DNA from: a virus
Length of the DNA stretch: 64,000 nt
Reading direction: 5' to 3' (one strand)
UHGV virus genome: UHGV-0382128
Of the stretch, positions 39,382 to 58,547 are shown piece after piece. Both the position numbers and the translations under genes were made by a program. The notes below the pieces were generated by a model that saw only the letters and a program-made list of their open reading frames with translations, was not told the origin of the DNA and searched no databases. Positions within the stretch are counted from its first letter, which is position 1. Each line of letters starts with the position of its first letter.

Positions 39382-40165
39382 GGTTTACCGTGACCTGAAC
39401 TTCGTAGATCTTATTGTCTTTCTGACGCCTTAAGGTCAAAAGGATTTCGAAACTACGAACATCAATTGCCTTGAGTACCCTCATAAACCATTTCCAGGAA
39501 AACTTCTTTTTTAACCTTAGATTGTGCTGCATATTGTGCCGCAAATCATTTCGTTTCGACGGCGTCTGCTCACAGTTAGCGGGATCGTTAACGAAGTTTG
39601 TGGAAAGACGGTACCACCAATCCGCATTCATTTTCATGTTTGCGAAGATAGTCCAAGTTAACCGAGATAACGGATGTACCATCATCTTTGCGGTCTCACC
39701 ACAGTTCTGGAAATAACGGTTCAGTTGCGCCGTTGCAGACTCCTTAGGTCGTTCGTCGTTATCTTCGAACAAATCCCGAGCGAGATCTTCACGCACGCGT
39801 GTGGTAACTTCAGATACGGTTTTTGTTTTGAAGTGTCCTCGGTAAGTGGTTACACAAATCCGCAGTGTTTCCACTCCGGTAATCACCAACCCTTCTGTAA
39901 AACCTCGCCAGGTAAGATCGACAGGTAGTGCAGGGATGTTACCTGAACTCAGCTTCGTGGAGATACGTTGTATTCGATCGTCCATCGTTGCTTTTGAACG
40001 TGTTTTAAATTCTGGAGACAGAATATGTTTGGCGACGGCGAGTTTGTAATCCGAAGGCTTCCATCCGATCAATTCTTTATAATTCCAATAAAGCGTTTGA
40101 AGTGGTCCGCCAGCACGTTCGTCTTCAGCGTCCACGACCACACTTACTTTTTTGCTATCCATCAC
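39320..40165 (-). CDS. Hypothetical protein (281 aa)
   Basis: ORF only. Confidence 0.45.
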   Translation of the reverse strand: MMDSKKVSVVVDAEDERAGGPLQTLYWNYKELIGWKPSDYKLAVAKHILSPEFKTRSKATMDDRIQRISTKLSSGNIPALPVDLTWRGFTEGLVITGVETLRICVTTYRGHFKTKTVSEVTTRVREDLARDLFEDNDERPKESATAQLNRYFQNCGETAKMMVHPLSRLTWTIFANMKMNADWWYRLSTNFVNDPANCEQTPSKRNDLRHNMQHNLRLKKKFSWKWFMRVLKAIDVRSFEILLTLRRQKDNKIYEVQVTVNLDEYQIGDQNENRPNNQSDK

Positions 40166-40195
40166 ATCACCTTGTTACAAGGGGTTACTGGTTTG

Positions 40196-40744
40196 TTAAA
40201 TAGGGCGTTCTAAAAGGTAGTGTTCGATCAGTGTTTCCAACTCCCGGAATAAATGCGCTGTTTGGTTTACCAACGCTTTGTCTTCGTCGGACTCCGGTTT
40301 AAGGAACGTCGATTCATAAGGTTGAATTAGCGCGAGTAATTTACCCAATTTATAAGCGGCAACCTCAGGACTGGACGTCCCAAAATAAGTGTCTAGCCAT
40401 CGGTATTCTGCCAAGTCGTTTCGTTTATTTAAAGCATCGGGCAATGGTAGCCATTCAATTGAACTCCTGTTAATTGCTCGTTGGTATTCGTTAATGAGAA
40501 ATGCTAAACGTTGATAAAGAATGTCAATGTTATTAACGCGCAATTCGAGGAAACCGCGAAGGCTGGGGCGAAAGGGTTCTTCATTTATGTTTAAAGGCAA
40601 TGTAAGCAATTGTAAGCCGGTAAAGACTCTGACATAGGGGTTGTGGGTGTTCTTATGGAACTCCTGCTTCAAAGACTCTCTGAGGGCTTTTAAACGGTTA
40701 TTCTCTAACCGTTGTTTAAAACGAGTTATTATTCCTGTTAACAT
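40196..40744 (-). CDS. Hypothetical protein (182 aa)
   Basis: ORF only. Confidence 0.45.
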   Translation of the reverse strand: MLTGIITRFKQRLENNRLKALRESLKQEFHKNTHNPYVRVFTGLQLLTLPLNINEEPFRPSLRGFLELRVNNIDILYQRLAFLINEYQRAINRSSIEWLPLPDALNKRNDLAEYRWLDTYFGTSSPEVAAYKLGKLLALIQPYESTFLKPESDEDKALVNQTAHLFRELETLIEHYLLERPI

Positions 40745-40815
40745 AATTCACTCCTAAAGAATGTCTCACGTAGATAATATCTGTCTGACTTCTTTTTGAA
40801 ATTGAGGTAGTAAGA

Positions 40816-41280
40816 ATGGCTGACGAAGAAGTGAAATATCAGGCGTTTGATGGAGATGTGGACGACGAAGAATCGCTTCTCCGCCAAACGCAACAAGCCC
40901 GTGTACGGATTGTGAACCTCATCTTAGACGATCCACAAGCACACAAAGACTTGAAAACGGTAGACCGTTTAGGGTCTTTGCTTAACGACGTTGATAAACA
41001 AATCATTTCCAAACGTCGTGTCGCCGCTGCACAGAAAAACAGCGAAGCTAACCAAGATTTGGCGAATGCACTTAATAGCATCCTCATGCAACGTGGTAAT
41101 ATCAAAATACGACGTCATGATGAGGAAATCGAAGAAACCCAGGGCTACCAGCCCCCCGTTCCTGCTATTCCGGATGTTGAGGTAACAGAAGGGGAGCTGG
41201 CACCAGTAGGTGAACAAATCGATGTTAAGTCCATTATGATGGCGGCGTTTGCACGTCCTGAACAGGACGAGCAAGACTAA
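40816..41280 (+). CDS. Hypothetical acidic protein (154 aa), lone plus-strand gene in a minus-strand block
   Basis: ORF with SD gaggtag; 3' end overlaps convergently with the 41234..41956 ORF. Confidence 0.45.
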   Translation: MADEEVKYQAFDGDVDDEESLLRQTQQARVRIVNLILDDPQAHKDLKTVDRLGSLLNDVDKQIISKRRVAAAQKNSEANQDLANALNSILMQRGNIKIRRHDEEIEETQGYQPPVPAIPDVEVTEGELAPVGEQIDVKSIMMAAFARPEQDEQD

Positions 41281-41956
41281 ATAAAGCAGCATCCCGTGGG
41301 TCGACACCGACCCACTCTGCCATAAACCGGATATGTTCCTTAAACGGGTTAACGCCGTCTTGTTTGATTTGTTCAACCAACACGCCGGTCAATTCTGGTG
41401 TGAGCATGGCAGGGTGTGTGATGGTAAAGCTTGGAATCGGTTTTTTCAAGTGCGAAGCGTTAAGCTTAATCCACTCGAACCAATCGTACATTATCCAGCA
41501 ATCCCACGCCAATGATAATCTCCCCGGTGTGAGGTCTTCTAACGACCAAGACACCAATTCGACTTGTACGTTATTGTAATACATCCGAAACAGATTCAAA
41601 AAGGCTTGAAGTTCTTCGCCTGTTAAATCCGTATAAGGCCATGTATTGATGGTCAGAGTAGGTTTTTCAATTGGCGAATGCATTTCGATTTCAAGCATCA
41701 TACACTCGAATTCGTTTTTCATCGTTGCCAATAATTCAGTAGGCTGCGCATTAATCAAAGCGCGCTTATCCCGCTTCCGCCACTCTTCATCCCATTTTTC
41801 AAACCCGAGTACACCCGCCCATGCTTCTGTATAGCGACGCCGATAAACATCGTAGTCTAGTAAGGCTAAGCTTTCAGGCTTAATGGCTTTTACCCAACCT
41901 AAACGCGTATCAAATAACGTATCAATATCGATTAAGAAACGTCGAGATAATCTCAT
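41234..41956 (-). CDS. Hypothetical protein (240 aa)
   Basis: ORF; 4-nt overlap with upstream gene. Confidence 0.45.
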   Translation of the reverse strand: MRLSRRFLIDIDTLFDTRLGWVKAIKPESLALLDYDVYRRRYTEAWAGVLGFEKWDEEWRKRDKRALINAQPTELLATMKNEFECMMLEIEMHSPIEKPTLTINTWPYTDLTGEELQAFLNLFRMYYNNVQVELVSWSLEDLTPGRLSLAWDCWIMYDWFEWIKLNASHLKKPIPSFTITHPAMLTPELTGVLVEQIKQDGVNPFKEHIRFMAEWVGVDPRDAALFSLARPVQDVQTPPS

Positions 41957-42621
41957 GACGGATGGCCTATGTTGTTACCGATATGCATCGCTTTCAGGTA
42001 CGCTGACCACGTACGCGTTGCTTTAGAACTCGTTCGCTCCGCTCCAGGCAAATCAATACGCCCTTTACCGGTTTGGCGCAGTGATTGATAGAAAGCACGT
42101 TGTAGTGCGTCGTTACCACCACGCGCCCACAAGAACTCTTTCAGTGTCCAGTCGTGACCATCGGAATACATGATGTATGCCTCTGGGAAGGACACCCCGG
42201 ATGCTTTGGAAGGCCCGACGACTTGACCGGAGAGCTTATCGCGGACTTTGTCGTTTTTCGCAACCGCCATTTTCTTTTCTTGCATCTGTGTCTGACGACG
42301 GACAGGCAAGCGTAAGACTAAGTGAGGGTAACGAGTACGATGATAAACACCCGTTTTTGGTTCTGTTAGCCACAGTCGTTGCTCCAGGTTTACCCCGAGA
42401 ATTTTACACACCTCGATATTGCGCAGGTGATCAATTTCGACTTTACTTCCCACCGGGTTGTAAATAGGCAAACCGTTACGAAGTCGGTTAAACTGTTCGT
42501 CGGTCATTCGTGCGAAGGCTTTCTTCGCGGCTTCAGCATTAATGCCAGAAGGGTCTACCAACTTTAAGATTTGTAAGGCGTAGGCTTCCGCCTTTTTACG
42601 CCGCGCTGGTTCGAGTTTCAT
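41953..42621 (-). CDS. Hypothetical protein (222 aa)
   Basis: ORF only. Confidence 0.45.
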   Translation of the reverse strand: MKLEPARRKKAEAYALQILKLVDPSGINAEAAKKAFARMTDEQFNRLRNGLPIYNPVGSKVEIDHLRNIEVCKILGVNLEQRLWLTEPKTGVYHRTRYPHLVLRLPVRRQTQMQEKKMAVAKNDKVRDKLSGQVVGPSKASGVSFPEAYIMYSDGHDWTLKEFLWARGGNDALQRAFYQSLRQTGKGRIDLPGAERTSSKATRTWSAYLKAMHIGNNIGHPS

Positions 42622-42895
42622 TGTCTACCGCCTTACGTAAATTGGATAACGTTTCTGCTTCAAGCAGGTCAATCCAGTAGCTGATAGCTTCCGTGTTTTC
42701 AGGAAGTTCGGAACGTACTGGTGCATACCCGTAACGTACTAATAGATTCGAGTAATACTCAGCGACCTTTAAACAAAAGGATTCCAGATCGGGAAACGGA
42801 AGAGTGAAGGCTTCACGAAATTCGGCCGCTGTTTCTAAATTAACACTTGCCAATCCTTCACTTAAGCGTTCCACAATCTCCGTTTGATAACGCAT
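42596..42895 (-). CDS. Hypothetical protein (99 aa)
   Basis: ORF with SD aaggag. Confidence 0.45.
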   Translation of the reverse strand: MRYQTEIVERLSEGLASVNLETAAEFREAFTLPFPDLESFCLKVAEYYSNLLVRYGYAPVRSELPENTEAISYWIDLLEAETLSNLRKAVDNETRTSAA

Positions 42896-42909
42896 GATGA
42901 CTCCTTAGG

Positions 42910-42952
42910 TCGGGTAGGGTTTACCCTACCCGATCCTATTTATTTCTTTTTC
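42910..42952. other. Perfect hairpin (cgggtagggt/accctacccg) overlapping the 3' end of the recombinase-like gene; T-run on the plus side only
   Basis: Stem 42910-42920 / 42923-42933, then tcctatttatttctttttcg on plus; on the coding (minus) side it is followed by an SD, not a T-run. Confidence 0.5.
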
Positions 42953-44436
42953 GTCAGGAACTTCGGTTCTAGTCCATCGACAGCCATACCCAGAATAGTA
43001 CGTGCAGTCAGTGTACGTTTACCACCTTTGGTTTCCTGGTCTTTAAACATCCAGTATTCTACCGTGTTATCCAGAATTTCATTCCAGTCCCACTTCTCGT
43101 CAATCAGTTTGTAAATCTCACCCATGCTGAGATGATACTTCATTTCAAGACGGTGGTAGTTGTTTTGCATATACGCGATTGCCGCCGTGATTTCTAAAGC
43201 GCGACGTAAGCGTGCGTTATCAGAAATCATATCACGGATTGTCGTACGTTGGAATTTCACACCAGGTAAAATGTCCAGTTCTTTGATAGAACCGCCACTA
43301 CCGCTTGACGTAAAACCAAAGTCTGACTTCTTCAGCGTGTCACTTAAATAGTGCCACAGGCTCAGGTGATATAACAGACCCATTTCCTGAGAGAAGATCA
43401 TCTGGAATTTCACACCGGTGTGACCACCCTTCGCACGATACTGAGTAAAGGTGATAATCTTCAAGTCGTTTACCGAAGCATTCATCGCTTTAGAACGTGA
43501 CGTCGGATAAAGTTCTTCGTTAACACCGGTCTGTGCGTTATAGCTCTGGTCTTTCTTCAACTCCCCTGATTTCGTCGCGACGATAAAAGAGTTTGTTAAA
43601 AAGCTAAGCTGACGGCGAGGAATACCTGCGAATTTTAAATCGTCGTTGGCATCGTCAAGAATTTTCGCATTTGCTTTTTGTGCCTGACGACCACCTGCCA
43701 TCGCTTTCCCAGAGTCATCGGCCATCTGTGCCACGAAACCCATATAGAAACCACCGCGTGCAAACGCAGACGGCCAGCGGCTCATCATGTTCGATTTTTG
43801 CAGTGCATCGTGGGCGTTCAGGATGTTCTGATCAGAATCACCGATATCTGTTTTTGCGTGTTTGTCTTCCAGCGAACTGGAATGCCACTCTGACAAAGAG
43901 TCGATAGAATAAAGCCAGGGGTCCAGGATTTCTTTTAACTTCCGACGAACCGGATCGGGGAACGGCGTTACACGGGTTTTACCAGACATATACTGCTTGA
44001 AGCGTTTTTCAACTTCGTCACGAATATAATCACTGTAATACTGTTCCCCAGGCATTACATCAGAACCGACCAGGTTATAACGACCTTCGTGGATGAGTTC
44101 CAATACGGACGTTCCGTCGTCGATACCGTTGGCGTTCATGGCAGAGATGTACCCAGTTTCTAAACGATCGAGGGCGGCGGACACTTCTGTATCGTACTTA
44201 GAACCCCACTCTGCTTTATAACGTTGCAGGATTTGGAAGATACAGAAATCTAACAAAGTGGATTTAAAGGTGTTACCGCGACCTGCGAAACCCATGATGT
44301 GGGCAAAACCACCGTTAAGGTAGTACAAACCATCTTCACCTTTTTCGTAGTTACCTAAGGCATGATCCATGATGGTGTAAACGTTAAAACGTGGACGAAT
44401 TACTTCACCGATAACTTGCTTAGTTGGGCCTGCCAT
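42940..44436 (-). CDS. Putative UvsX/RecA-like recombinase (498 aa)
   Basis: MGFAGRGNTFKSTLL resembles the T4 UvsX P-loop LAGPSKSFKSNFGL; preceding TIMDHALG resembles the RecA/UvsX N-terminal segment. Confidence 0.45.
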   Translation of the reverse strand: MAGPTKQVIGEVIRPRFNVYTIMDHALGNYEKGEDGLYYLNGGFAHIMGFAGRGNTFKSTLLDFCIFQILQRYKAEWGSKYDTEVSAALDRLETGYISAMNANGIDDGTSVLELIHEGRYNLVGSDVMPGEQYYSDYIRDEVEKRFKQYMSGKTRVTPFPDPVRRKLKEILDPWLYSIDSLSEWHSSSLEDKHAKTDIGDSDQNILNAHDALQKSNMMSRWPSAFARGGFYMGFVAQMADDSGKAMAGGRQAQKANAKILDDANDDLKFAGIPRRQLSFLTNSFIVATKSGELKKDQSYNAQTGVNEELYPTSRSKAMNASVNDLKIITFTQYRAKGGHTGVKFQMIFSQEMGLLYHLSLWHYLSDTLKKSDFGFTSSGSGGSIKELDILPGVKFQRTTIRDMISDNARLRRALEITAAIAYMQNNYHRLEMKYHLSMGEIYKLIDEKWDWNEILDNTVEYWMFKDQETKGGKRTLTARTILGMAVDGLEPKFLTKKK

Positions 44437-44451
44437 TTAGCGCTCCGATAA

Positions 44452-44751
44452 TTAACGATTCTTGGTCGGAAGAAGAAGACGGCGGTTGTGCCAGAATTCA
44501 AAGTAGGTCTCTACCCACTCAGTAACTTCTTCCGCATTTTCAGGATAAGGGTTTTCAATAGACTCGAAACGGCGTTTGTTACGCTCGTCAATTTCCAGTT
44601 CCATAACACGTTTACCGCTCGGGCACGACGTTACGCTCAAGACTTTTCCAACTTGAATAGGCTTACCGTTCTGACCTTTTTTAACAGGGCTCAGATAAAT
44701 TTCCGGTTCTAAACGCGGTGTGGTGTTTCGAGTCAGTAATTTGATTTTCAT
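44452..44751 (-). CDS. Hypothetical protein (99 aa)
   Basis: ORF only. Confidence 0.45.
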   Translation of the reverse strand: MKIKLLTRNTTPRLEPEIYLSPVKKGQNGKPIQVGKVLSVTSCPSGKRVMELEIDERNKRRFESIENPYPENAEEVTEWVETYFEFWHNRRLLLPTKNR

Positions 44752-44849
44752 CGAGCTTTACCTTTATGGAATTGTCTCGGTCATAAGGTTTGGGTGAACT
44801 GTAAAAAGACTTTACTATGTAACCCTGACTTATAATCCGAGGTTTTAGA

Positions 44850-45605
44850 ATGAATGTAAATCCACTTGCAGCGTTATCTAGCTTCGCCGCTAAAGCGTCT
44901 GCAATCTTACCGAAAGGCTTTAGTGGCCCTCAACAAGAGATTGCATTAACCACTTATGACGAGATGTCGGACGTTTCCAAGTGGATGCAACAAGAAAAAT
45001 TCCTTCACTTTGCGGGAATGTTGGTTATCGTTCCACCTGGGTTTAATACCTACGTGATGGATCATTTGAACCGCTTAGAATCCGTATGGAGTTCACTGCA
45101 AAACATTTATACGGGTATTCTGTTCCCGGTCGATAAACAACTTTCGGCCCTTACACATGATGTGGGTGTACTGTCATTACCGATTGGTTTCCGTTACAAA
45201 AATGTTAATATACCTTTACGTAACGTTAACCCGAAAGATCTGGTTAACTTGTTAGCGAAATCGTACACTAACAACGTTATTGACCAGCGACCAATCGAGA
45301 AGACGTATCACAGCGCGTCCGAAATTGATGTTGCGTTCAATCGTGCTAAGGCACTGAACGTTGAAATCACAAAACGTCTACGGACAAACATCGACAAGTC
45401 AATCGAGTCTATTCGCACTACGTCAGAAATCTTGTCAGAACAAAACATTCATCCGAATGTAGCAAAAGAACTGACGATGATGTTAGATTTTGCTTCCGAT
45501 TGGGTGGAGCTGTTTGGTTTGTTCATGAAACAGGTTAACGAATTAATCGAATGCCTGAACGTTACTGCCGAACGCTTAAAAGCGCTTAAGGCAAACAAAA
45601 AATAA
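44850..45605 (+). CDS. Hypothetical protein (251 aa), lone plus-strand gene
   Basis: ORF with SD gagg and a TATAAT-like hexamer ~15 nt upstream; ends at a bidirectional terminator. Confidence 0.5.
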   Translation: MNVNPLAALSSFAAKASAILPKGFSGPQQEIALTTYDEMSDVSKWMQQEKFLHFAGMLVIVPPGFNTYVMDHLNRLESVWSSLQNIYTGILFPVDKQLSALTHDVGVLSLPIGFRYKNVNIPLRNVNPKDLVNLLAKSYTNNVIDQRPIEKTYHSASEIDVAFNRAKALNVEITKRLRTNIDKSIESIRTTSEILSEQNIHPNVAKELTMMLDFASDWVELFGLFMKQVNELIECLNVTAERLKALKANKK

Positions 45606-45655
45606 AAAAGTAAAGCTACCCCTAGACCACACGGTCTAGGGGTAAACTATTTATT
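45606..45655. terminator. Bidirectional rho-independent terminator
   Basis: Stem cccctagacc / ggtctagggg (45619-45642) flanked by A-run and T-rich tract; between convergent genes. Confidence 0.75.
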
Positions 45656-46550
45656 TCCCACGATAAAATCCAGAGATGTAGCTTGGCGCTATCCATCGCC
45701 ATTCGCGCCAACGCATTTCTGACATTTTACCACACCATACACGCTTCCAATGAGCACGACGGATATGTGCTGCGCAATAAATCGCCAAACAAACCTCGTG
45801 TCCCTCCTTGCGTTGTTGTTCTATATCTTCCCATTGTACCGGACTTACGTCTAAAACGACCGCTTCACTACGTGGGCGAATCTCTGTATCAGGAACATAA
45901 CGAATGGTCCTCCCGCGAAATTCTTTCTTCTCACGTTCAGTTCGTTTAATTCGCGATGAAAGATATAGTCCGATATAGACGGCGTCGAGTAGTCGTTGAT
46001 TCTCCTTAACCGAAGTAAGGAGCGGCTTTAACTCCACGAAATCATCATTACTTTTATCGATCGTGTAAATCTCAAACTCCATGTATACCGACTCGTCATG
46101 TTCTTCGCATGACATCACAAAGAGAACTTCTTCACCTTCGTAAAGACGTCTTCCGATAAATAACGTGATTGGACATTCGTCGAGATTTACGGTAACCGAG
46201 AAAGTAAATGAAGGGATGGTTTCTATCCAGAAGTACGGGATATTTTTTAGTCTCTCAGTTTTTGCTAAGAGCGCCATCAGTTCTTCATCCGAGATGATTT
46301 CAACAGCAGCGTATTGCCATCCTAGTCCCAGGGACTGCTTAATCAGTCTGGGAATCTGTTCGGTAACGCCATATTCACGATAGGTCGGATCTTTAACTGG
46401 CATAAACGTTACGGGTATTTGTCGTTTATGCTCGTTAATGAACCGAATAAAACGGCACTGATCTAATCCGTGAATTGTTTGGTGTGCTTTTTCTATCTGT
46501 TCGCTCATGCGTCTTAGCGCTTTCCCGTAAAGTCTATTATTCGTTGTCAT
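45651..46550 (-). CDS. Paralog family A, member 1 (~299 aa; start revised to ATG at 46550)
   Basis: Track ORF 45651..46646 overlaps the upstream gene; the internal ATG (MTTNNRLYG...) is preceded by SD ggagca. C-terminal AAHIRRAHWKRVWCG...W.EWRWIAPSYISGF is shared with the neighbouring gene. Confidence 0.5.
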   Translation of the reverse strand: MTTNNRLYGKALRRMSEQIEKAHQTIHGLDQCRFIRFINEHKRQIPVTFMPVKDPTYREYGVTEQIPRLIKQSLGLGWQYAAVEIISDEELMALLAKTERLKNIPYFWIETIPSFTFSVTVNLDECPITLFIGRRLYEGEEVLFVMSCEEHDESVYMEFEIYTIDKSNDDFVELKPLLTSVKENQRLLDAVYIGLYLSSRIKRTEREKKEFRGRTIRYVPDTEIRPRSEAVVLDVSPVQWEDIEQQRKEGHEVCLAIYCAAHIRRAHWKRVWCGKMSEMRWREWRWIAPSYISGFYRGK

Positions 46551-46575
46551 TTTAATGCTCCTAAACACTTTTAGC

Positions 46576-47502
46576 TTAATTGTGGGGTACGTAGCCACGG
46601 ACAAATGTAGGTGGAATCCAACAAAGTTTTCTTTTTCTTTCCCCATCTCTTGGACCGACCCAATATCTGCGCCAGTGCGCGCGACGAATATGTGCGGCCT
46701 TGGCGTGTTTGATACCTTCCATGGTTTTCAAGTCGGTGTTAAATCCCTTTAGATATTTCACTTGTTCTGGTGTGATGTCTATTTTAACGTCACGTTCACG
46801 AGGTTTGATTTCGTGACTTATGCTACCATTCTTTTTGATTTCTTTGAACTTAATGTCATTGAAAGACCCTCTGAGATTGGGCGGGATTAGCGTACAGAGA
46901 AATATCAACGATATGGCGGTTTTGGCCAGTGATAACCATAACGTCTTCTCTTGTTCGGTCTGTACGCCAGTTGTATAATCGATTTCAACAAGCCCGTTTC
47001 CAACACTACATATCTCTAACGAGCAGGTGGCGATTGTGGTAACGCCTTCTGTTAACCCGTAATCAGTATTTGTAGCAATTATAATAAACCTTCTATTCCC
47101 ATTTTTTCGATAACCGAGAAAGAAAGTCTCATCTTCTTTACCTACATCGATTGCCACAGTCCAAGTAGGTATAAAGTCCAACCATTCTTCAGGGAATTTA
47201 CTGGGCATCTCAGTCTCGAAAACAAGTTCTCTAAGTGCTCGATCGGATATTAAGGAAGCACCACCGTATAGCCATCCGATCGCCAATGTTTGAGCGTGAA
47301 GGGAACGGGGATCTTTGAGACCTAACTCAGCATCGTAGGGTATAAAGGCATTAGTTAAATGCTTACGATTCTTTTTTATCCATTTCGAGACGGGATTTTC
47401 TTTTGTTTGGTTTTCTTCCATGACATTTTCTAGATGCTGACTCCCCATTTGTCTAAGGCAGTCTTTAATACCTTTTACTTTTTTACTTTTGTACAAATAC
47501 AT
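46576..47502 (-). CDS. Paralog family A, member 2 (308 aa)
   Basis: C-terminal AAHIRRAHWRRYWVG...LCWIPPTFVRGY and an internal block similar to the gene downstream; own SD aggaga after a terminator. Confidence 0.55.
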   Translation of the reverse strand: MYLYKSKKVKGIKDCLRQMGSQHLENVMEENQTKENPVSKWIKKNRKHLTNAFIPYDAELGLKDPRSLHAQTLAIGWLYGGASLISDRALRELVFETEMPSKFPEEWLDFIPTWTVAIDVGKEDETFFLGYRKNGNRRFIIIATNTDYGLTEGVTTIATCSLEICSVGNGLVEIDYTTGVQTEQEKTLWLSLAKTAISLIFLCTLIPPNLRGSFNDIKFKEIKKNGSISHEIKPRERDVKIDITPEQVKYLKGFNTDLKTMEGIKHAKAAHIRRAHWRRYWVGPRDGERKRKLCWIPPTFVRGYVPHN

Positions 47503-47520
47503 GGTATATTCTCCTAAAAT

Positions 47521-47560
47521 GGTTAAAAAAGATAGAGGGACGCTTTAGCGTCCCTCTAAG
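47521..47560 (-). terminator. Rho-independent terminator
   Basis: Stem agagggacgc / gcgtccctct, loop ttta, T-run on minus strand, then SD aggaga + ATG. Confidence 0.7.
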
Positions 47561-48046
47561 TCAATCATCTTCGGTAAGTTCAGGATGGTGGGTTTTTAAG
47601 TATCCCCATATCTGAATGGCGAGTGGCTCTTGATTTTCTAGAATCATCTGCTTTATTTTAGACTTCGACCCCCCATTCCAAATTTCCTTATAAAGTTTTC
47701 TCCATTCCTCACAAGCATAAAGAACGGTTGTTGTCGGATTTATAGGTAATGAACGATCGTTGTCTAAGAGTTTGACTGTACTATCTAGGATAATGTTAAG
47801 ACATGTTATTATATCTGCTTTTGACACGACAGACTTATCGGAGGGAAAGAAATTAGGCAGATGGCCCATTATAACGCTTTTATAGGTTATCGTAATAAAT
47901 TTACCCACGGCGGTTACCATCCATGGTTCAGCTTTTCTAGATACGTACAAATAAGATGGTAACTGTTTCTCTATTAAATCTATATGGTTTAAAAACAAGT
48001 GAGTAATAGCGCTATTACTCGGCTTAATGATGTTATTTATGTACAT
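47561..48046 (-). CDS. Paralog family B, member 1 (161 aa)
   Basis: Same length as the upstream gene and shared C-terminal block (...W.KLYKEIW...IQIWGYLKTHHPE vs ...WEKFYTRIW...LQLWEWLKANYP). Confidence 0.5.
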   Translation of the reverse strand: MYINNIIKPSNSAITHLFLNHIDLIEKQLPSYLYVSRKAEPWMVTAVGKFITITYKSVIMGHLPNFFPSDKSVVSKADIITCLNIILDSTVKLLDNDRSLPINPTTTVLYACEEWRKLYKEIWNGGSKSKIKQMILENQEPLAIQIWGYLKTHHPELTEDD

Positions 48047-48075
48047 AAAGTACTCTCTTATTTTCAGTCTATATT

Positions 48076-48561
48076 CTATAGTGACACGTAAATAGGATAA
48101 TTAGCTTTCAGCCACTCCCATAGCTGTAAGGAAAGTAGGTTTTCATTACGTTCGATGATTTCCATGATTTCGTCCAAGTTAGAATCTTCAACCCAAATCC
48201 GGGTATAAAATTTTTCCCATTCCGGTTCTGTATAAGGGACTAGAGGAGTAGGGAATCGCTCCATGTGGTACGCATCAGAAACTTTCTTTAAGAACTCGTC
48301 GCGACCATGGCGTAGGCGTTGCCGAACGTCTGTTTCTGTTATGCGCTTGCTTGATAGATCGGAGAAGTCAAATAGGCTAAATATGTATTGCGTTAGACAC
48401 CGAGAAGAAAAGTAGGACGCGGCATAAGCCGCCATCCAAGGAGTGTCTGCAACCAACGGAGTCAACTTTTCTTCAATTTCTTTTCTTACACGTGTTTCGT
48501 TATTGAGAAATTCATGTACGATATCGCAGTTACGAATATCGAAGATATGATTTAAGTTCAT
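48076..48561 (-). CDS. Paralog family B, member 2 (161 aa)
   Basis: See family B member 1. Confidence 0.5.
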   Translation of the reverse strand: MNLNHIFDIRNCDIVHEFLNNETRVRKEIEEKLTPLVADTPWMAAYAASYFSSRCLTQYIFSLFDFSDLSSKRITETDVRQRLRHGRDEFLKKVSDAYHMERFPTPLVPYTEPEWEKFYTRIWVEDSNLDEIMEIIERNENLLSLQLWEWLKANYPIYVSL

Positions 48562-48562
48562 T

Positions 48563-49087
48563 TTACTGTCCTAAAATTGGGGTGAGTCTGTCTGCGGTGT
48601 TTAACAATGCTTTTGTAATTTCGTGGTTGGTCTCTTTTAGGATGGCGCAGCAGAGAGTGGTATAAACCTCGATTGCTAAACCGATTTCTTGTTCAGTCAG
48701 ACACGGTTCGGTGCCGCCAATCCCGTAACGCTGCGCTGCATACTCAATTTCAAGTTTCAAACGTTTTCGTAGTGCCTCGTCATCAGTTAAACGCGCGCAC
48801 GCCCGATCGAAACGTCTATTGTAAGCCTCGATCTTGTGGACAATTTCGCGTCGCAGTTGGTCGACCTTTACGTTATCATCAAGAGTGATGGTGACGTTGT
48901 CAACTAAACAGTAATGCACCGCGTGTCGTAAGTTGTGTAATGTGGCGGCAGTAACGACCCGCTCCTGATGGTCGCTAAAGCCGTGGGCACCACAGAGCTT
49001 GCGTGCAACCGCGCCAGAGATTTTCTCCTCTAACGCTATCGGCGTGGCAATGGTTGTTTTCTTACGAAGCTGAATTAAAATATCCAC
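48563..49087 (-). CDS. Hypothetical protein (174 aa)
   Basis: ORF abutting neighbours (operon-like spacing). Confidence 0.45.
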   Translation of the reverse strand: MDILIQLRKKTTIATPIALEEKISGAVARKLCGAHGFSDHQERVVTAATLHNLRHAVHYCLVDNVTITLDDNVKVDQLRREIVHKIEAYNRRFDRACARLTDDEALRKRLKLEIEYAAQRYGIGGTEPCLTEQEIGLAIEVYTTLCCAILKETNHEITKALLNTADRLTPILGQ

Positions 49088-49089
49088 GG

Positions 49090-49632
49090 TTATACTCCTT
49101 TAGGTTGTCCGTATTTTGACGATAGGTAGATGAGTTCAGCATGGCAGATTTTCTCAACTAACCCGAGTGTCTCAAGGAAAATATCCCGGATACGGGACAT
49201 CGTTTCGTTGGTAAGAATATCGCTCCAACATGTTGTGTCTATTATATCCGTCGTTGAAGATTGGCGCTGCAATATTGCGACATACACTTCGTCGAGGCTA
49301 TCTGGTGCATTATTCTGTAAGTAATGGGCGGCATGTAGAAAGGCTTTCTCAAGAATCAGCTGAATATCCGTATCGGGATCAGTTACCCGTACTAAATGCG
49401 GGTATGTCATAGCCGAACTGATTTTTATCACTAACTGCTCAACGAGGTTATTCACCATCGCTTCTGAATCCAGGATAGTAATATCAGCTCCATCGTGTTC
49501 TTCAGAAATCTTATTCTCATGCACTGCTATCGCATCGTGTAATTCAAACGCAACGCGACTTCGCATCTCACTTAACACTTTGTTTAATTTGTCCCGTGAC
49601 TCGCTGAGTGAGAAATCGATAAGTATTTTCAT
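49090..49632 (-). CDS. Hypothetical protein (180 aa)
   Basis: ORF; 1-nt overlap with the upstream gene. Confidence 0.45.
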   Translation of the reverse strand: MKILIDFSLSESRDKLNKVLSEMRSRVAFELHDAIAVHENKISEEHDGADITILDSEAMVNNLVEQLVIKISSAMTYPHLVRVTDPDTDIQLILEKAFLHAAHYLQNNAPDSLDEVYVAILQRQSSTTDIIDTTCWSDILTNETMSRIRDIFLETLGLVEKICHAELIYLSSKYGQPKGV

Positions 49633-50375
49633 TATACGTACTCCTGATAAATTGGCCGACCCCGATCTTCTCGAATCTGGCAGTATGTTACAACAATACC
49701 GTTAGGGATTTGTGCGCCGCTGTCTTCAAGGTAAATAACGCCCGTAGCTTCACAGAGATAAAACGACCACAATCGTGAGATACCAAGCCGTGCGTTCTCG
49801 TAGTGACTGAATGGCCAGAAACCACAGTGAATCTCATCATAGTCTCCCCGTTCTATCCCGTAAGCAATCATTTCTTTTTCCCACAACGTACATTCAGCGT
49901 CGTAAGTCGAAAACCAGAAACCAACGAGATTCTTTGTCCGCTTAACGTTCATTAAGTCGTTATAAATGGGAAAGAGTGCTTTATTGAAATTTTCTAACAT
50001 CTCTGGAGAGAATAGAAAATTCATGTAGTATTCTAGCCATTGATAAACGGCTTCCCAGACATCTTCAGAAGAGAAATGTTCGAATACGGCGTCATCGCAA
50101 TCGTAGTTATCGAAGATCCCTGAGAGATCTATTTCGACGACGCCGCGAAGGTCAAAGTTTCTGTTGGTATTGACAGCGTCAATAACCTCAGCGATGAGAC
50201 GAGTAAAGACGATTGTGCAGGCGGTTTGTGCGGTATAAAAGAATTCTCCTTGTACGGTTGACCACTTCGGGTCCTTCAAATGTTCATTGAAGTATTGTGG
50301 CCAAATTTTATAAAAGATTCCCTCGAACAACGAGGGATTGATACGTTGTAATTGAGGGACATAAACTTTTAGCAT
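49632..50375 (-). CDS. Hypothetical protein (247 aa)
   Basis: ORF only. Confidence 0.45.
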   Translation of the reverse strand: MLKVYVPQLQRINPSLFEGIFYKIWPQYFNEHLKDPKWSTVQGEFFYTAQTACTIVFTRLIAEVIDAVNTNRNFDLRGVVEIDLSGIFDNYDCDDAVFEHFSSEDVWEAVYQWLEYYMNFLFSPEMLENFNKALFPIYNDLMNVKRTKNLVGFWFSTYDAECTLWEKEMIAYGIERGDYDEIHCGFWPFSHYENARLGISRLWSFYLCEATGVIYLEDSGAQIPNGIVVTYCQIREDRGRPIYQEYV

Positions 50376-50411
50376 TCTAATAACTCCAATGGTGTTACAC
50401 CTGGATAATAT

Positions 50412-51080
50412 CTATCTAAGAATATTTTTAATGAAAAAAGGATCGGCTGTAAACTCCTTCACTTGTGAGTCATAACCCGAATGTATTTGATCGCTACTGA
50501 GCAAATACTGGTCTAGGTCGTGCGGAAGAATCCAAGAATCACCTTGCTTAAAAATACCATAATCTGCTGTTCCTGCGGAAAAAATGATTTCCTCTGGAAA
50601 CGAATAGACACGGCGTAAGGCAAGATCGGATGGCTTTAACACGATTAATCGAACGGGATGTTGACTGACTGCCTCTTTAATAAACTGTTCACGATTAAAC
50701 CAAATTATTTTTTCGGGGTAAGTTTCGAATTCAGCCCATGCCCGCGTGATAACTAATTTGGAAATCTTTCTCAATTCTTCAGAACGCTCTGCGTAGCCGA
50801 TGCACTCCTTGCGTACTTCATGATTTTCTATCGATGTTGTGAATTTTTGGAATAGGTGTTGTTGGAAAAAGCCGTTCTCCGGGATATCACAACCCGCGTT
50901 GTATAGTGCTATGATCTCCCACAACAACGAAAGAGAAAACACAAATGCTAACTTTTCCACAACTTCCCAATCTTCGGAGTAAGGGGCTTTAAAGCCCCAA
51001 TACTGCCGTGCGTTATACATAAAGTGAGTTTGTAAAAACCGAGGGGCTTTTGACAAGACCTCACTATAAACGATCAGCAT
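50412..51080 (-). CDS. Hypothetical protein (222 aa)
   Basis: ORF; 7-nt overlap with the RNase H gene. Confidence 0.45.
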   Translation of the reverse strand: MLIVYSEVLSKAPRFLQTHFMYNARQYWGFKAPYSEDWEVVEKLAFVFSLSLLWEIIALYNAGCDIPENGFFQQHLFQKFTTSIENHEVRKECIGYAERSEELRKISKLVITRAWAEFETYPEKIIWFNREQFIKEAVSQHPVRLIVLKPSDLALRRVYSFPEEIIFSAGTADYGIFKQGDSWILPHDLDQYLLSSDQIHSGYDSQVKEFTADPFFIKNILR

Positions 51081-52594
51081 TCAAGCTCCTTATCCGTCAA
51101 TATTCGTTTGTTTGAATAATAGCCGCACCACAAACCATGATATTTTTCCCCGATATAAACCAACGCGTATTCGATATACTGCCGTTCTGGACGACGTACA
51201 GCCACGTAAAACCGCCCTTCCGGTTCTTTGATACGGTTGATTTCCGTACGCGTCGGTATGTCGATACCTCGAGTAAGGATAGCTTTAACCTTGTTTTTAC
51301 TACCAGGGATCTTGATGGTTACGTCAAAACCTTTATCTACGTTACGATAAATGTCTTTCTTCGGCTTACCTTTCTCATCGTAAAGTACGTCAGTAATGTC
51401 ATTCAACACTACTGAGTTTTTCCCTTCCATGGCATCGCGTAACCAACCTGCAAGCTCATCACGAATCGCAATACAACGATAAGATAATAGCGCAGGACGA
51501 AGAATTCGTGTAATCGAAAGATCTTCAAACATCCACAGGTTTTTGTCTTCACTAAAATGCATCCGATCGATAGGAATGCCGTTAGCAGCGGCTTCTGCGA
51601 ACTTCTTGCGCTTTACGAATAAGTTAAAAACAACGGCGATTGGATCAAATTGACGTAAACGGGGCACCCCTTCCCACGCTTTCGCAGAATGGGTATTTAC
51701 CAACTCGTATACGTTATCCCACGGTTCTTTGGTAAACATTACGCAGAATTGTGCATCTGGAATGTACTTACCAACGAAGACGATATCATCCTTCTGTTTT
51801 GCGTGGTTTCCACCGAACATGTAATAAAGTTTATTACCGTTAACTGTAACAGTGGGGTGAGGCTCGTTCACCATCGGGTAACAGAACTTCGTAACACAGA
51901 TATCGGGAAAAGTGGACAAATTGACACCCTCACCAACAACTTCCGGTTGCTGTTCTTCCTCAGGCAGTTCGTCTTTTGACCAATACGGTGTATAGTCTAA
52001 CCCCTCCCCTCGGGCAGAGATAATTGAGCCTTTCCGCGCTAACTCGTCTGCGCGTTCGTTTCCATAACGTCCAGAGTGGCCTTTAATTTTAAGGACACGA
52101 ACACCTTTCCCTTCTTTCTTTAAGCGCTGTTTAACCACCCACATCCGTTGGATTAATTCCAGATTCGCAATAGGTGTACCGTCCGCACGACGCCAACCAC
52201 GTGCTGCCCAACCATCAATCCAGTCGTTATACGTGTTGACAACGTAAGATGCGTCGATATAGATAACGTAGTTTTTGGCAACGAAGGGGGCGTGTTCGAA
52301 GACGGTCAGGAAAGCCACGAGTTCTGCAACGTCGGAGTGTGACATTTTTGGTACAGGAACAACTCCGTCAATAAACTCCACGGTTTCTGGTAAAGGCGGA
52401 AGTTTTTCATCTTTGTTTATCTGGCGGTATCCTGACGTCGTAATCCCCTCGGGAATAGTGGGATGGCGGTAAACCCGACCATCCTCAATCGCTTCACGAT
52501 TAAATAAGTATCCATGAATCCCCGCCCCTGTACCGAGCGGGGAGGTCAAATGGCTACCGTCCGTGTAAATTACTGCAACATCAACGTTCTTCAT
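51074..52594 (-). CDS. RNase H (RNase HI-like) domain fused to a ~310-aa C-terminal domain of unknown function (506 aa)
   Basis: N-terminus carries the full RNase HI pattern: IYTDGS, AELVAF, IYIDASYVVN...W..GW, IKGHSGRYGNERADELARKG (cf. E. coli RnhA FTDGS...E...STDSQYV...VKGHAGHPENERCDELAR). Confidence 0.8.
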   Translation of the reverse strand: MKNVDVAVIYTDGSHLTSPLGTGAGIHGYLFNREAIEDGRVYRHPTIPEGITTSGYRQINKDEKLPPLPETVEFIDGVVPVPKMSHSDVAELVAFLTVFEHAPFVAKNYVIYIDASYVVNTYNDWIDGWAARGWRRADGTPIANLELIQRMWVVKQRLKKEGKGVRVLKIKGHSGRYGNERADELARKGSIISARGEGLDYTPYWSKDELPEEEQQPEVVGEGVNLSTFPDICVTKFCYPMVNEPHPTVTVNGNKLYYMFGGNHAKQKDDIVFVGKYIPDAQFCVMFTKEPWDNVYELVNTHSAKAWEGVPRLRQFDPIAVVFNLFVKRKKFAEAAANGIPIDRMHFSEDKNLWMFEDLSITRILRPALLSYRCIAIRDELAGWLRDAMEGKNSVVLNDITDVLYDEKGKPKKDIYRNVDKGFDVTIKIPGSKNKVKAILTRGIDIPTRTEINRIKEPEGRFYVAVRRPERQYIEYALVYIGEKYHGLWCGYYSNKRILTDKELEC

Positions 52595-52596
52595 TC

Positions 52597-53331
52597 TTAA
52601 TCCCTGGTTAATTGATCACGAATCTGCGGCGCAACATACTCGCCAGTTTTCAGTTCTTCGTGACAGGCTTTGGCGCGTTCAAACCCGTATTGGTGTGTGA
52701 CCAAAGCGAGGTGGTAAATACGTGCCGTGGTGTAGGCTTCTTTTGCTGCATCCCACATTGCGTGGTGCTCAAAAGCGGGCTTACCGCGTGTCCAATAAAC
52801 TTGCTCTACCGTTAAGTCGGGTTCGAAACCAAACGCAAAGGCTAAACGTTCTGCGGTGCGATCGCTATCCAGCGCACTAAATTTACGGAACTTCCCGGGC
52901 GGAATATCGCATTGTGCGAAAGCGTTCATGAAAATCGGCGCATCGAAGTCGGGACCGCGCATGGTAATAACAAACTCATGTTTTGCGGTGATCTCCCCGA
53001 GCCATTTTTGCATCGCCCACAGAGCATCAGGCAATGCTGTTGTTCCACCCCATGCTTCCGCATAGGCTTCACGAGACGGCGCGTATTCAGGTTCGCCTTT
53101 ACCTTCCCACCATCCCACCGTTTGTGGGTCTTCGTGGAAAATAGCTTTTGCTTTAGGGTCATTAGGATCGATACGGATGTATGAGGAACCAACCATTTTC
53201 AAGGTAGGGACGTCAAACGCCACTAAACCTGCACTCAACAGATAAGCGTCGGGACGTAACGATTTGGTTTCTGCATCGGCACCAATAACCAACGTCGGTG
53301 TGTACGGGGTGATAATTTTTGGGTAGGTCAT
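52597..53331 (-). CDS. Putative DEDDh-type 3'-5' exonuclease (244 aa)
   Basis: LVIGADAETKSL (Exo I-like DxE) and C-terminal EHHAMWDA (H-x4-D, Exo III-like); spacing and middle motif not verified. Confidence 0.4.
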   Translation of the reverse strand: MTYPKIITPYTPTLVIGADAETKSLRPDAYLLSAGLVAFDVPTLKMVGSSYIRIDPNDPKAKAIFHEDPQTVGWWEGKGEPEYAPSREAYAEAWGGTTALPDALWAMQKWLGEITAKHEFVITMRGPDFDAPIFMNAFAQCDIPPGKFRKFSALDSDRTAERLAFAFGFEPDLTVEQVYWTRGKPAFEHHAMWDAAKEAYTTARIYHLALVTHQYGFERAKACHEELKTGEYVAPQIRDQLTRD

Positions 53332-53371
53332 GTTGAATTCTCCTGTTAGTCTACATTAAAATAGTCGTAAA

Positions 53372-53418
53372 CGTTAAAAAGAAAGGCCCTCCTGTACCTC
53401 GAAGGGTACAGGAGGGAG
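53372..53418 (-). terminator. Rho-independent terminator
   Basis: Stem ccctcctgtaccc / gggtacaggaggg, loop tcgaa, T-run on minus, then SD aggaga + ATG. Confidence 0.7.
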
Positions 53419-53420
53419 TG

Positions 53421-53879
53421 TCAGTACAAACACGATGTCAAGTATTGGTTATACGAATCGAGCAGTGCCTGACGGTCGGAACGGTAATTCCACAACAAAT
53501 TATTGAGTTTACGCGATAAATCACGGCTAATCTCCTGGGCCGTTAAAGAGCTCTCATCAAGAAACATGCGCTCAGGTACAACGTGTAATTTCGGTAACTC
53601 ATAGCGTTCACAAAGTGGAGCCAACATTGGTGGACTCCAGCCACGTTTAGCGGCTTGCTGGTTTAAATTTCGTGTGTAGACATAAACGTAATAAGCATAG
53701 GTGTTGACATCTGCAACATACTCACGCATTGCATTCTTGTCAATTTTCCAATTCACCATTATTGGCGGTTCAGGAGGAAGTTCCAGTGGTCTATAAGCTG
53801 GACGTTTAACTTCGTCACCGTAGCTATTACTCACCAACCCCACGAACACTACCATGATGAATAATAGCATTTTCATCAA
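53421..53879 (-). CDS. Secreted/periplasmic protein with N-terminal signal peptide (152 aa)
   Basis: MMKMLLFIMVVFVGLVSNSYG|DEV: hydrophobic core and small residues at -3/-1; no lipobox Cys. Confidence 0.5.
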   Translation of the reverse strand: MMKMLLFIMVVFVGLVSNSYGDEVKRPAYRPLELPPEPPIMVNWKIDKNAMREYVADVNTYAYYVYVYTRNLNQQAAKRGWSPPMLAPLCERYELPKLHVVPERMFLDESSLTAQEISRDLSRKLNNLLWNYRSDRQALLDSYNQYLTSCLY

Positions 53880-54383: not shown

Positions 54384-54408
54384 TGCTCACCTCGGAGTAT
54401 TTTTAATT

Positions 54409-55782: not shown

Positions 55783-55785
55783 TGA

Positions 55786-56409: not shown

Positions 56410-56455
56410 AAAAGATTACCCTACTCCTTCGGGAGTAGGGTAGCTTTTATTTTAA
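56410..56455. terminator. Bidirectional rho-independent terminator (CCCTACTCC family)
   Basis: Stem taccctactcc / ggagtagggta, loop ttcg, then gcttttatttt; between convergent genes. Confidence 0.8.
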
Positions 56456-57000: not shown

Positions 57001-57015
57001 TTTAATACTCCTAAG

Positions 57016-57054
57016 ATGGAAAAAGAATTAACCCTACTCCCGGAGGAGTAGGGG
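57016..57054 (-). terminator. Rho-independent terminator (CCCTACTCC family)
   Basis: Stem ccctactcc / ggagtaggg, loop cgga, T-run on minus, then SD aggag. Confidence 0.7.
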
Positions 57055-57061
57055 ACTTAAA

Positions 57062-58006: not shown

Positions 58007-58059
58007 TTTAATAGTCCTCTTTTAGGTTTGTTCAAATCAACTAAGGGTTATGTAAAAAG

Positions 58060-58539: not shown

Positions 58540-58547
58540 AACTCTGC

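What the first reader, a model, noticed from the sequence alone, without database searches (positions are those of the whole stretch)
45651..47502. Paralog pair sharing a basic/aromatic C-terminal motif AHIRRAHW(R/K)RxW
Two adjacent genes (~300 aa each) end with ...AAHIRRAHWRRYWVGPRDGERKRKLCWIPPTFVRGY and ...AAHIRRAHWKRVWCGKMSEMRWREWRWIAPSYISGF. They also share an internal block (IPTWTVAIDVGKED.TFFLGYR / IPSFTFSVTVNLDECPITLFIGRR) while being otherwise diverged. The conserved Arg/His/Trp-rich tail looks like a nucleic-acid-binding or membrane-interacting module, and I cannot assign it to a known family.
Basis: seen in the sequence. Interest (0 to 1): 0.6.

Follow-up and report, generated by a model that had tools for sequence, protein, structure and literature searches.

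The report
Tandem AcrVA2-like genes in jumbo phage
The two neighbouring genes are diverged copies of the known AcrVA2/FinQ family, proteins that mobile elements use to shut off one chosen target protein by destroying its mRNA during translation; here they sit in a swappable cassette of a giant Enterobacteriaceae phage, and their targets are unknown.

Summary
Two adjacent minus-strand genes (46576..47502, 308 aa; 45651..46550, 299 aa) are paralogs (BLASTP E=4e-20, 23% identity). They are most alike in the C-terminal 46 residues (40% against 13-26% elsewhere).

- The upstream protein hits the AcrVA2 crystal-structure sequence directly (E=1.7e-4).
- A 50-member profile seeded from the window hits AcrVA2 over its full length (E=9.6e-41).
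- All five AcrVA2 residues shown by mutagenesis to matter are kept in both copies. The 'AHIRRAHW' tail is the H286/R288/H291 motif needed for mRNA down-regulation.

The window is a Seoulvirus/Erskinevirus-like, probably nucleus-forming, jumbo phage. The pair forms a cassette bracketed by terminators at a conserved site next to uvsX. Across relatives that site holds no copy, one copy of differing alleles, or two.

Most likely each copy recognises a different non-Cas12a protein as it is translated and triggers loss of its mRNA. This mechanism is inferred from AcrVA2, not shown here.

Verdict: new member of a known kind, moderate interest.

The parts
46576..47502 (-). Upstream AcrVA2-like gene (308 aa plus TAA stop)
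45651..46550 (-). Downstream AcrVA2-like gene (299 aa plus TAA stop); the longest ORF runs to 46646, but the real start is ATG 46550
   Evidence: BLASTP against the upstream copy gives E=4e-20. Homologues P0004 and P0005 carry PF26125. The orthologue pair L002/L006 has dN/dS 0.10. There is no direct PDB sequence hit and the AF2 model is poor (pLDDT 46).
46579..46716 (-). C-terminal domain of the upstream copy (residues 263-308, GIKHAKAAHIRRAHWRRYWVGPRDGERKRKLCWIPPTFVRGYVPHN); H271, R273 and H276 correspond to AcrVA2 H286, R288 and H291
   Evidence: These columns, plus W281, G283 and W295, are invariant in the 50 family members. dN/dS is 0.03.
45654..45791 (-). C-terminal domain of the downstream copy (residues 254-299, ...AAHIRRAHWKRVWCGKMSEMRWREWRWIAPSYISGFYRGK); H262, R264 and H267 correspond to AcrVA2 H286, R288 and H291
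47107..47172 (-). Internal block of the upstream copy, IPTWTVAIDVGKEDETFFLGYR (first strands of the middle domain; AcrVA2 has LPDWCVYVDIS here)
   Evidence: P112 is nearly invariant in the family.
46146..46217 (-). Internal block of the downstream copy, IPSFTFSVTVNLDECPITLFIGRR
47242..47274 (-). Upstream copy W77...D87, equivalent to AcrVA2 W79 and D89 (mutants show moderate loss of function)
   Evidence: the mutant data are.
46287..46319 (-). Downstream copy W78...D88, equivalent to AcrVA2 W79 and D89
47523..47558 (-). Intrinsic-terminator-like hairpin (11-bp stem followed by TCTTTTTT) between the preceding 161-aa gene and the cassette
47511..47515 (-). AGGAG ribosome-binding site of the upstream copy
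46558..46562 (-). AGGAG ribosome-binding site of the downstream copy, in the 25-nt intergenic gap
45616..45645 (.). Bidirectional terminator-like hairpin (12-13-bp stem) between the cassette and the convergent 251-aa gene

Best explanation
The two genes are tandem, anciently diverged members of the AcrVA2-like (AcrVA2/FinQ) family. They sit in a two-gene accessory cassette bracketed by terminators in a Seoulvirus/Erskinevirus-like jumbo phage of Enterobacteriaceae. By analogy with AcrVA2, the variable N-terminal helical and middle beta-rich domains of each protein would bind a specific peptide of one target protein as it emerges from the ribosome. The conserved C-terminal H-x-R-x-x-H/Trp hairpin would then trigger destruction of that protein's mRNA and block its synthesis. 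Only the tail and a few scaffold residues are shared, and the hosts of related phages are not known to carry Cas12a. The two copies therefore most likely silence two different non-Cas12a targets: host defence or host-takeover-relevant proteins, or proteins of competing mobile elements. Shown here: the paralogy, family membership, fold, conservation of the functional residues, purifying selection, the cassette anatomy and the locus variability. Inferred: the co-translational mRNA-silencing mechanism and the nature of the targets. The confidence of 0.6 is for the whole statement; family membership alone I put at about 0.95.
For: Family membership:
- Direct phmmer hit to AcrVA2, E=1.7e-4.
- The family profile A4 hits AcrVA2 at E=9.6e-41 over profile positions 11-307 and chain residues 7-318.
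- Foldseek gives E=4e-9 with probability 1.00, and the next non-AcrVA2 hit has probability 0.15.
- The precomputed Pfam label PF26125 'AcrVA2-like' is on both tandem genes of related contigs.

Functional residues: W79, D89, H286, R288 and H291 of AcrVA2 are all conserved in both copies, and H, R and H are invariant in 50/50 family members. Their roles come from mutagenesis in Marino et al..

Both genes appear functional: dN/dS is 0.10-0.23 overall and 0.03 in the C-terminal domain, and each has its own AGGAG site.

Different specificities: the paralogs share 13-26% identity outside the tail, and the Cas12a(620-636)-contact residues E98, D129 and D195 are not conserved.

Accessory, arms-race-like behaviour:
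- Against Asesino, UvsX is 80% identical but the AcrVA2-like gene only 28%.
- The gene is absent from SPN3US and most Seoulviruses despite flanks that are 95-98% identical.
- Allele replacement in SaP7 versus JN03 runs exactly from the start codon to the terminator.
- The two copies vary independently among close relatives: upstream 90% and downstream 64% against L006, while L002 against L006 is 73% upstream and 98% downstream.

Wider context: AcrVA2 orthologues occur on plasmids and megaphages, mostly without Cas12a in the host. FinQ, a homologue, lowers F-plasmid tra mRNA.
Against: No experiment exists on any jumbo-phage member, so mechanism and targets are extrapolated across about 15-20% sequence identity. 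How AcrVA2 itself destroys mRNA is unknown, and the key paper is a preprint. The AF2 model of the upstream copy is only moderate (pLDDT 65.6) and is weakest in the C-terminal tail. The downstream copy's model is unusable (pLDDT 46). The downstream copy has no direct sequence hit to AcrVA2. Its membership rests on its link to the upstream copy, the shared profile and the PF26125 label on its 98%-identical homologue. The host of this particular phage is not identified, so absence of Cas12a is general knowledge, not a test made here.
Confidence: 0.6

Rival explanations
1. They are genuine anti-CRISPRs against Cas12a, like AcrVA2 itself, and protect the phage from a type V-A system in its host.
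For: Homology to AcrVA2 and conservation of its effector motif. AcrVA2 acts on Cas12a orthologues that share only 35% identity.
Against: Related phages infect Erwinia, Salmonella, E. coli, Proteus and Enterobacter, in which type V-A systems are not known (general knowledge, not tested here). Most AcrVA2 orthologues occur where Cas12a is absent. Nucleus-forming relatives already shield their DNA from DNA-targeting Cas nucleases. The Cas12a-contact residues E98, D129 and D195 are not conserved, and the N-terminal and middle domains share only about 15-20% identity with AcrVA2. No Aca-type HTH gene lies nearby.
Confidence: 0.06
2. Same molecular mechanism, but the targets are proteins of competing mobile elements rather than host defences. 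This would be FinQ-like exclusion of conjugative plasmids or superinfecting phages, useful during the persistent carrier state seen in Seoul-like phages.
For: FinQ, a family member, inhibits F-plasmid transfer and lowers tra mRNA. A close relative that carries the tandem pair persists as a 222-kb circular 'plasmid' in an Enterobacter ludwigii isolate. Seoul-like phages are frequent persistent residents of bacterial isolates.
Against: There is no direct evidence for any target. The gene is missing from most Seoulviruses, which nevertheless persist.
Confidence: 0.2
3. They regulate the phage's own genes, for example by switching off early proteins co-translationally as part of the temporal programme.
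For: They are encoded among replication and recombination genes (RNase H, UvsX) on the same strand. The mechanism would work in the cytoplasm, where mRNAs of nucleus-forming phages are translated.
Against: A core regulator would not be absent from near-identical phages such as SPN3US, nor swapped for alleles of 28-52% identity. The fast divergence relative to neighbouring genes fits conflict better than housekeeping.
Confidence: 0.07
4. They are generic nucleic-acid-binding, membrane-interacting or structural proteins, and the basic/aromatic tail simply binds nucleic acid or lipid.
For: The tail is rich in Arg, His and Trp. In AcrVA2 the tail is loosely packed and flexible.
Against: Specific full-length homology and fold match to AcrVA2. 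The Asesino and ChrisDB homologues are annotated 'hypothetical protein', whereas nearby Asesino gp240 and gp241 are annotated 'putative virion structural protein'. The gene is dispensable in most Seoulviruses. No transmembrane or lipid-binding family matched.
Confidence: 0.03

Closest known systems
AcrVA2 (Moraxella bovoculi prophage anti-CRISPR; PDB 7CI1/7CI2; Pfam PF26125 AcrVA2-like)
   Same: Same length class (about 300-320 aa). Same three-part architecture: a helical N-terminal domain, a beta-rich middle domain and a small beta-hairpin C-terminal domain. Full-length profile match and unique fold match. W79, D89, H286, R288 and H291 are conserved, together with the following W..W.G....W.P pattern.
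   Different: Only about 13-17% identity over the structural alignments. The Cas12a-contact residues are not conserved. The genes are in a virulent or persistent jumbo phage of Enterobacteriaceae rather than a Moraxella prophage. There is no acrVA1 or aca partner. They are present as two diverged tandem copies. The target is unknown and probably not Cas12a.
FinQ (fertility inhibitor of IncI/F-like plasmids of E. coli)
   Same: Reported to be an AcrVA2 homologue with the conserved HxR motif. It lowers mRNA of F transfer genes, so it is a non-CRISPR target in an enterobacterial host. This is the best precedent for a non-Cas12a role.
   Different: FinQ is plasmid-borne and single-copy. I did not retrieve its sequence, so the relationship to the window proteins rests on the paper and was not tested here. 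tblastn of the upstream copy against 72,556 plasmids found only the phage-like E. ludwigii replicon.
Single-copy syntenic homologues in Erwinia, Salmonella and E. coli jumbo phages (Asesino gp235, ChrisDB gp236, the SaP7 gene, an unannotated JN03 ORF; phrog_6160)
   Same: Same position: small fast-evolving genes, then the AcrVA2-like gene, then a convergent 251-aa gene, a 99-aa gene and uvsX. Same strand and the same terminator-bracketed layout. The upstream window copy groups with them in an NJ tree.
   Different: They have one copy, and SPN3US has none. Identity to the window copies is only 20-29%. All are annotated as hypothetical, or not annotated at all.

Membership tests
AcrVA2-like family (Pfam PF26125) | Significant sequence or profile similarity to AcrVA2 over the whole protein | tested here: met
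   The upstream copy hits 7ci1_A directly at E=1.7e-4, through the tail plus a weak N-terminal stretch. Profile A4 (50 sequences gathered from the window-seeded search) hits 7ci1_A at E=9.6e-41 across residues 7-318. The downstream copy alone gives no PDB hit but is tied to the upstream copy at E=4e-20.
AcrVA2-like family (Pfam PF26125) | Match to the Pfam model PF26125 | tested here: inconclusive
   The local Pfam copy does not return this model for the window proteins or for P0001-P0003, so it appears to lack the model. The precomputed labels give PF26125 'AcrVA2-like' for homologues at 90% and 98% identity and for both tandem genes in L002, L005, L006 and L007. The feature is met indirectly and was not scored on the window sequences themselves.
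AcrVA2-like family (Pfam PF26125) | AcrVA2 fold: helical N-terminal domain, beta-rich middle domain, small C-terminal beta domain | tested here: met
AcrVA2-like family (Pfam PF26125) | Conserved C-terminal H-x-R-x-x-H motif (AcrVA2 H286, R288, H291) plus W79 and D89 | tested here: met
   Upstream copy: W77, D87, H271, R273, H276. Downstream copy: W78, D88, H262, R264, H267. H, R and H are invariant in 50/50 aligned family members (coordinates verified).
AcrVA2-like family (Pfam PF26125) | Translation-dependent down-regulation of a specific target mRNA | not testable with these tools
   This needs expression, RNA-seq and start-codon or synonymous-recoding controls of the kind used by Marino et al..
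Anti-CRISPR against Cas12a (functional class AcrVA) | Binds Cas12a and inhibits type V-A immunity; the host carries Cas12a | not testable with these tools
   The host of the window phage is unknown. Relatives infect Enterobacterales. The AcrVA2 residues that contact Cas12a 620-636 (E98, D129, D195) are not conserved. Those residues were themselves dispensable in vivo.
Anti-CRISPR against Cas12a (functional class AcrVA) | Typical acr locus context (adjacent aca HTH regulator or other acr genes such as acrVA1) | tested here: not met
   The neighbours have no HTH or Acr family matches: there are only unknown-function PHROGs, a UvsX-like recombinase and RNase H. This context is typical of acr loci but does not define them.
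FinQ fertility inhibitors | Sequence similarity to FinQ; plasmid-borne; inhibits F transfer | not tested
Its homology to AcrVA2 is taken from Marino et al.. The plasmid tblastn found no plasmid homologue other than a phage-like replicon.

The most novel reading that the evidence does not exclude
Nucleus-forming jumbo phages already hide their DNA from DNA-targeting immunity. They may use a rapidly exchangeable cassette of AcrVA2-like proteins as evolvable silencers that read nascent peptides. Each paralog would recognise the N-terminal peptide of a different host immune, host-takeover-relevant or rival-element protein and destroy its mRNA during translation. The tandem pair would then be a two-target counter-defence module in a Cas12a-free host, extending the AcrVA2 mechanism well beyond anti-CRISPR function.
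Probability: 0.4. Interest if true: 0.6.

Novelty: new member of a known kind. Interest (0 to 1): 0.35.

Why it matters
AcrVA2 is so far the only bacterial example of a protein that recognises a nascent polypeptide and triggers loss of its mRNA. Its nuclease or cofactor and the targets of its roughly 1,800 orthologues remain unknown.

These jumbo-phage members are all labelled 'hypothetical' in public records. They offer natural pairs of diverged specificity domains on a constant effector tail, in genetically tractable enterobacterial hosts that are not known to carry Cas12a. That makes them practical material for two open questions: what non-Cas12a targets the family hits, and how the tail works.

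For annotation, the result is simpler: these genes, phrog_6160 and the unannotated JN03 ORF should be labelled AcrVA2-like.

Tried and rejected
- Local Pfam-A, NCBIfam and PHROG scans gave no functional name. There was only phrog_6160 of unknown function and a spurious AAA_19 hit at E=0.16.
- The word-indexed protein search found only close relatives, even with a profile. The exhaustive representative search was needed to see the family: 640 representatives at E<=1e-3.
- A narrow 7-sequence profile matched AcrVA2 less well (E=0.027) than the single sequence did. Only the broad profile resolved the relationship.
- The AF2 model of the downstream copy was too poor to use.
- A sigma-70 promoter scan found nothing convincing between the upstream terminator and the first start codon. 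These phages use their own RNA polymerases, so this result says little.
- dS between the window and L006 downstream copies is saturated, so no dN/dS could be computed for that pair.
- The 174-aa and 180-aa upstream genes are not paralogs of each other or of the 161-aa pair.

Full report
**1. Observation**

The window carries two adjacent minus-strand ORFs at 46576..47502 (308 aa) and 45651..46646 (331 aa as the longest ORF). BLASTP of the pair gives E=4e-20 and 23% identity over about 280 residues. Both proteins match phrog_6160, a PHROG of unknown function. The paralogy is therefore real.

The downstream gene really starts at ATG 46550. That codon lies 25 nt after the upstream TAA (46578..46576), has an AGGAG at 46562..46558, and agrees with the called start of the 98%-identical protein P0004. 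The gene is 299 aa. By region, the paralogs are 40% identical in the last 46 residues and 13-26% identical elsewhere.

**2. Genomic setting**

The window is a jumbo phage related at about 74-76% nucleotide identity to Erwinia phages Asesino, Stratton and phiEaH2 (Erskinevirus) and to Salmonella phage SPN3US (Seoulvirus). Its closest relative in an annotated public collection is a 222-kb circular 'plasmid' of Enterobacter ludwigii 51A:C, at 81.7% nucleotide identity.

Phage nucleus formation has been demonstrated experimentally for Asesino and SPN3US (review PMC13282480). Seoul-like phages all encode chimallin and are often found persisting in bacterial isolates (bioRxiv 10.1101/2024.12.31.630880). 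That the window phage itself forms a nucleus is an inference from this relatedness.

The pair sits between a fast-evolving block of small genes downstream of an RNase H gene and a convergent 251-aa gene, a 99-aa gene and a UvsX-like recombinase gene.

**3. Identity**

Several independent lines place both genes in the AcrVA2-like family.
- A phmmer search of PDB sequences with the upstream protein finds one hit, AcrVA2 (7ci1_A), at E=1.7e-4. The alignment pairs HIRRGHWHGYWQG...WQPAVFV with HIRRAHWRRYWVG...WIPPTFV, and there is a weak second alignment that includes LPDWCVYVDIS against IPTWTVAIDVG.
- An exhaustive profile search seeded only with window proteins and their close homologues finds 640 cluster representatives at E<=1e-3. 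Most are 300-380 aa with the motif at the C-terminus.
- A 50-sequence alignment of these (A4) used as a profile hits AcrVA2 at E=9.6e-41 over residues 7-318. The next PDB hit is at E=0.15.
- The gene tables of related contigs label both tandem genes PF26125 'AcrVA2-like'. The local Pfam copy seems to lack that model.

**4. Functional residues**

I rebuilt AcrVA2 residues 6-317 from the alignment printed and added them to alignment A4. All five residues whose mutation impaired AcrVA2 are conserved in both copies.

| AcrVA2 residue | Upstream copy | Downstream copy |
|---|---|---|
| W79 | W77 | W78 |
| D89 | D87 | D88 |
| H286 | H271 | H262 |
| R288 | R273 | R264 |
| H291 | H276 | H267 |

The H, R and H columns are invariant in all 50 aligned family members, as are W281, G283 and W295 (upstream numbering). 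According to Marino et al. (bioRxiv 10.1101/2022.11.29.518452), the H286A, R288A and H291A mutants still bind Cas12a but no longer lower its mRNA and protein. The W79A and D89A mutants lose function moderately.

In contrast, the residues E98, D129 and D195, which contact the Cas12a 620-636 peptide in 7CI2, are not conserved.

**5. How it most likely works (inference)**

AcrVA2 recognises the N-terminal LSKT-containing peptide of Cas12a. It causes translation-dependent loss of cas12a mRNA, independent of promoter and codon usage. The nuclease step is unknown.

By homology, each window protein would use its divergent N-terminal and middle domains to bind a specific nascent polypeptide. Its conserved tail would then trigger mRNA loss.

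The hosts of related phages are Enterobacterales, in which Cas12a is not known (general knowledge, not tested here). Most AcrVA2 orthologues lie in Cas12a-free bacteria, and the homologue FinQ lowers F tra mRNA. The targets are therefore probably not Cas12a. Two copies that share only the tail suggest two targets.

**6. Evolutionary behaviour**

Both genes are under purifying selection. dN/dS is 0.11-0.23 for the upstream copy and 0.10 for the downstream orthologue pair L002/L006, and it drops to 0.03 in the tail.

Even so, the locus evolves much faster than its neighbours.
- Against Asesino, UvsX is 80% identical, the 251-aa protein 76% and RNase H 67%, but the AcrVA2-like protein is only 28%.
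- Asesino, ChrisDB, SaP7 and JN03 each have a single copy at the same site.
- SPN3US and most Seoulviruses lack the gene altogether, although their flanks are 95-98% identical.
- Homology between SaP7 and JN03 breaks exactly at the start codon and resumes at the downstream terminator. SPN3US lacks the gene together with its upstream terminator.
- The two-copy arrangement is shared by metagenomic relatives (L002, L003, L005-L007) and by the E. ludwigii replicon.
- The two copies vary independently. The window against L006 is 90% (upstream) and 64% (downstream), while L002 against L006 is 73% and 98%.
- In an NJ tree without bootstrap support, the upstream copy groups with the syntenic single-copy clade and the downstream copy branches outside it. 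The second copy is therefore old or was acquired by exchange.

In the window the cassette reads as follows:

| Element | Coordinates (minus strand) |
|---|---|
| Terminator hairpin | 47558..47533 |
| AGGAG | 47515..47511 |
| Upstream gene | 47502..46576 |
| AGGAG | 46562..46558 |
| Downstream gene | 46550..45651 |
| Bidirectional terminator hairpin | 45645..45616 |

This is the pattern expected of an accessory conflict gene. It does not fit a structural protein or a core regulator.

**7. Comparison with what is known, and novelty**

The family, its fold, its motif and its presence on 'megaphages' are already described. Other phage members are recognisable by structure but are annotated as uncharacterised.

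What is specific here is modest:
- a tandem, anciently diverged pair;
- a hot-swappable cassette bracketed by terminators;
- a Seoul/Erskine-like jumbo phage of Enterobacteriaceae.

A BLASTp survey of verified anti-CRISPRs in jumbo phages reported none in ChmA-encoding phages (PMC11448039). That is consistent with these genes being too diverged for BLAST to find.

I classify the finding as a new member of a known kind, with moderate interest (0.35). The main open question is what the non-Cas12a targets are.

**8. Limits**

- No experiment exists for any jumbo-phage member of the family.
- The mechanism is transferred across about 15-20% sequence identity from a preprint.
- The downstream copy's structure could not be modelled.
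- The host of this phage is unknown.
- PF26125 could not be scored directly on the window proteins.
- The FinQ relationship was taken from the literature and was not tested here.

Noticed in passing
window 47561..48046 and 48076..48561 (minus strand): A second tandem paralog pair lies immediately upstream of the AcrVA2-like pair. Both genes are 161 aa, 26% identical, BLASTP E=2e-16, with no Pfam or PHROG match. Related contigs L002, L005 and L006 carry only one such gene, 28-68% identical to the window copies.
   Followed up: partly
window about 47500..51100 (genes of 161, 161, 174, 180, 247 and 222 aa): The block between RNase H and the AcrVA2-like pair evolves much faster than the flanking core genes. 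Against L006 the values are 222 aa 57%, 180 aa 61% and 161 aa 31-40%, compared with UvsX 97% and RNase H 84%. This may be a wider accessory or host-interaction island.
   Followed up: partly
L012 (NZ_CP134650.1, Enterobacter ludwigii 51A:C 'plasmid unnamed1', 222,441 bp, circular): This record is filed as a non-mobilizable plasmid, but it is 81.7% identical in nucleotide sequence to window 40000-60000 and has the same phage gene order. It is probably a Seoul-like jumbo phage persisting in a bacterial isolate, and it points to Enterobacter as a likely host genus for the window's clade.
   Followed up: partly
L008 (Salmonella phage JN03, MT799840.1), locus about 2820-3745: An intact 307-aa AcrVA2-like ORF (close to P0012) is not annotated in the GenBank record.
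   Followed up: yes
L011 (SaP7), L008 (JN03) and L013 (SPN3US): Among near-identical Seoulviruses the AcrVA2-like gene is either absent (SPN3US and most others) or present as one of two alleles about 41% identical to each other. The homology break-points fall exactly at the start codon and at the downstream terminator.
   Followed up: yes
BFVD hit A0A223LH45 (Erwinia phage vB_EamM_RisingSun): A structural homologue of the upstream copy (Foldseek E=3.6e-11) is named 'Putative mycothiosynthase' in UniProt. That name looks like a misannotation for an AcrVA2-like protein.
   Followed up: no
window 45616..45645: A perfect 12-13-bp GC-rich hairpin with T-runs on both strands lies between the convergent stop codons of the downstream copy and the 251-aa gene. 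It looks like a bidirectional terminator. Analogous but different hairpins occupy the same place in SaP7, JN03 and SPN3US.
   Followed up: partly
Pfam resources used by the tools: The local Pfam-A hmmscan library returns nothing for proteins whose precomputed annotation is PF26125 (AcrVA2-like). A negative local Pfam scan was therefore misleading here.
   Followed up: yes
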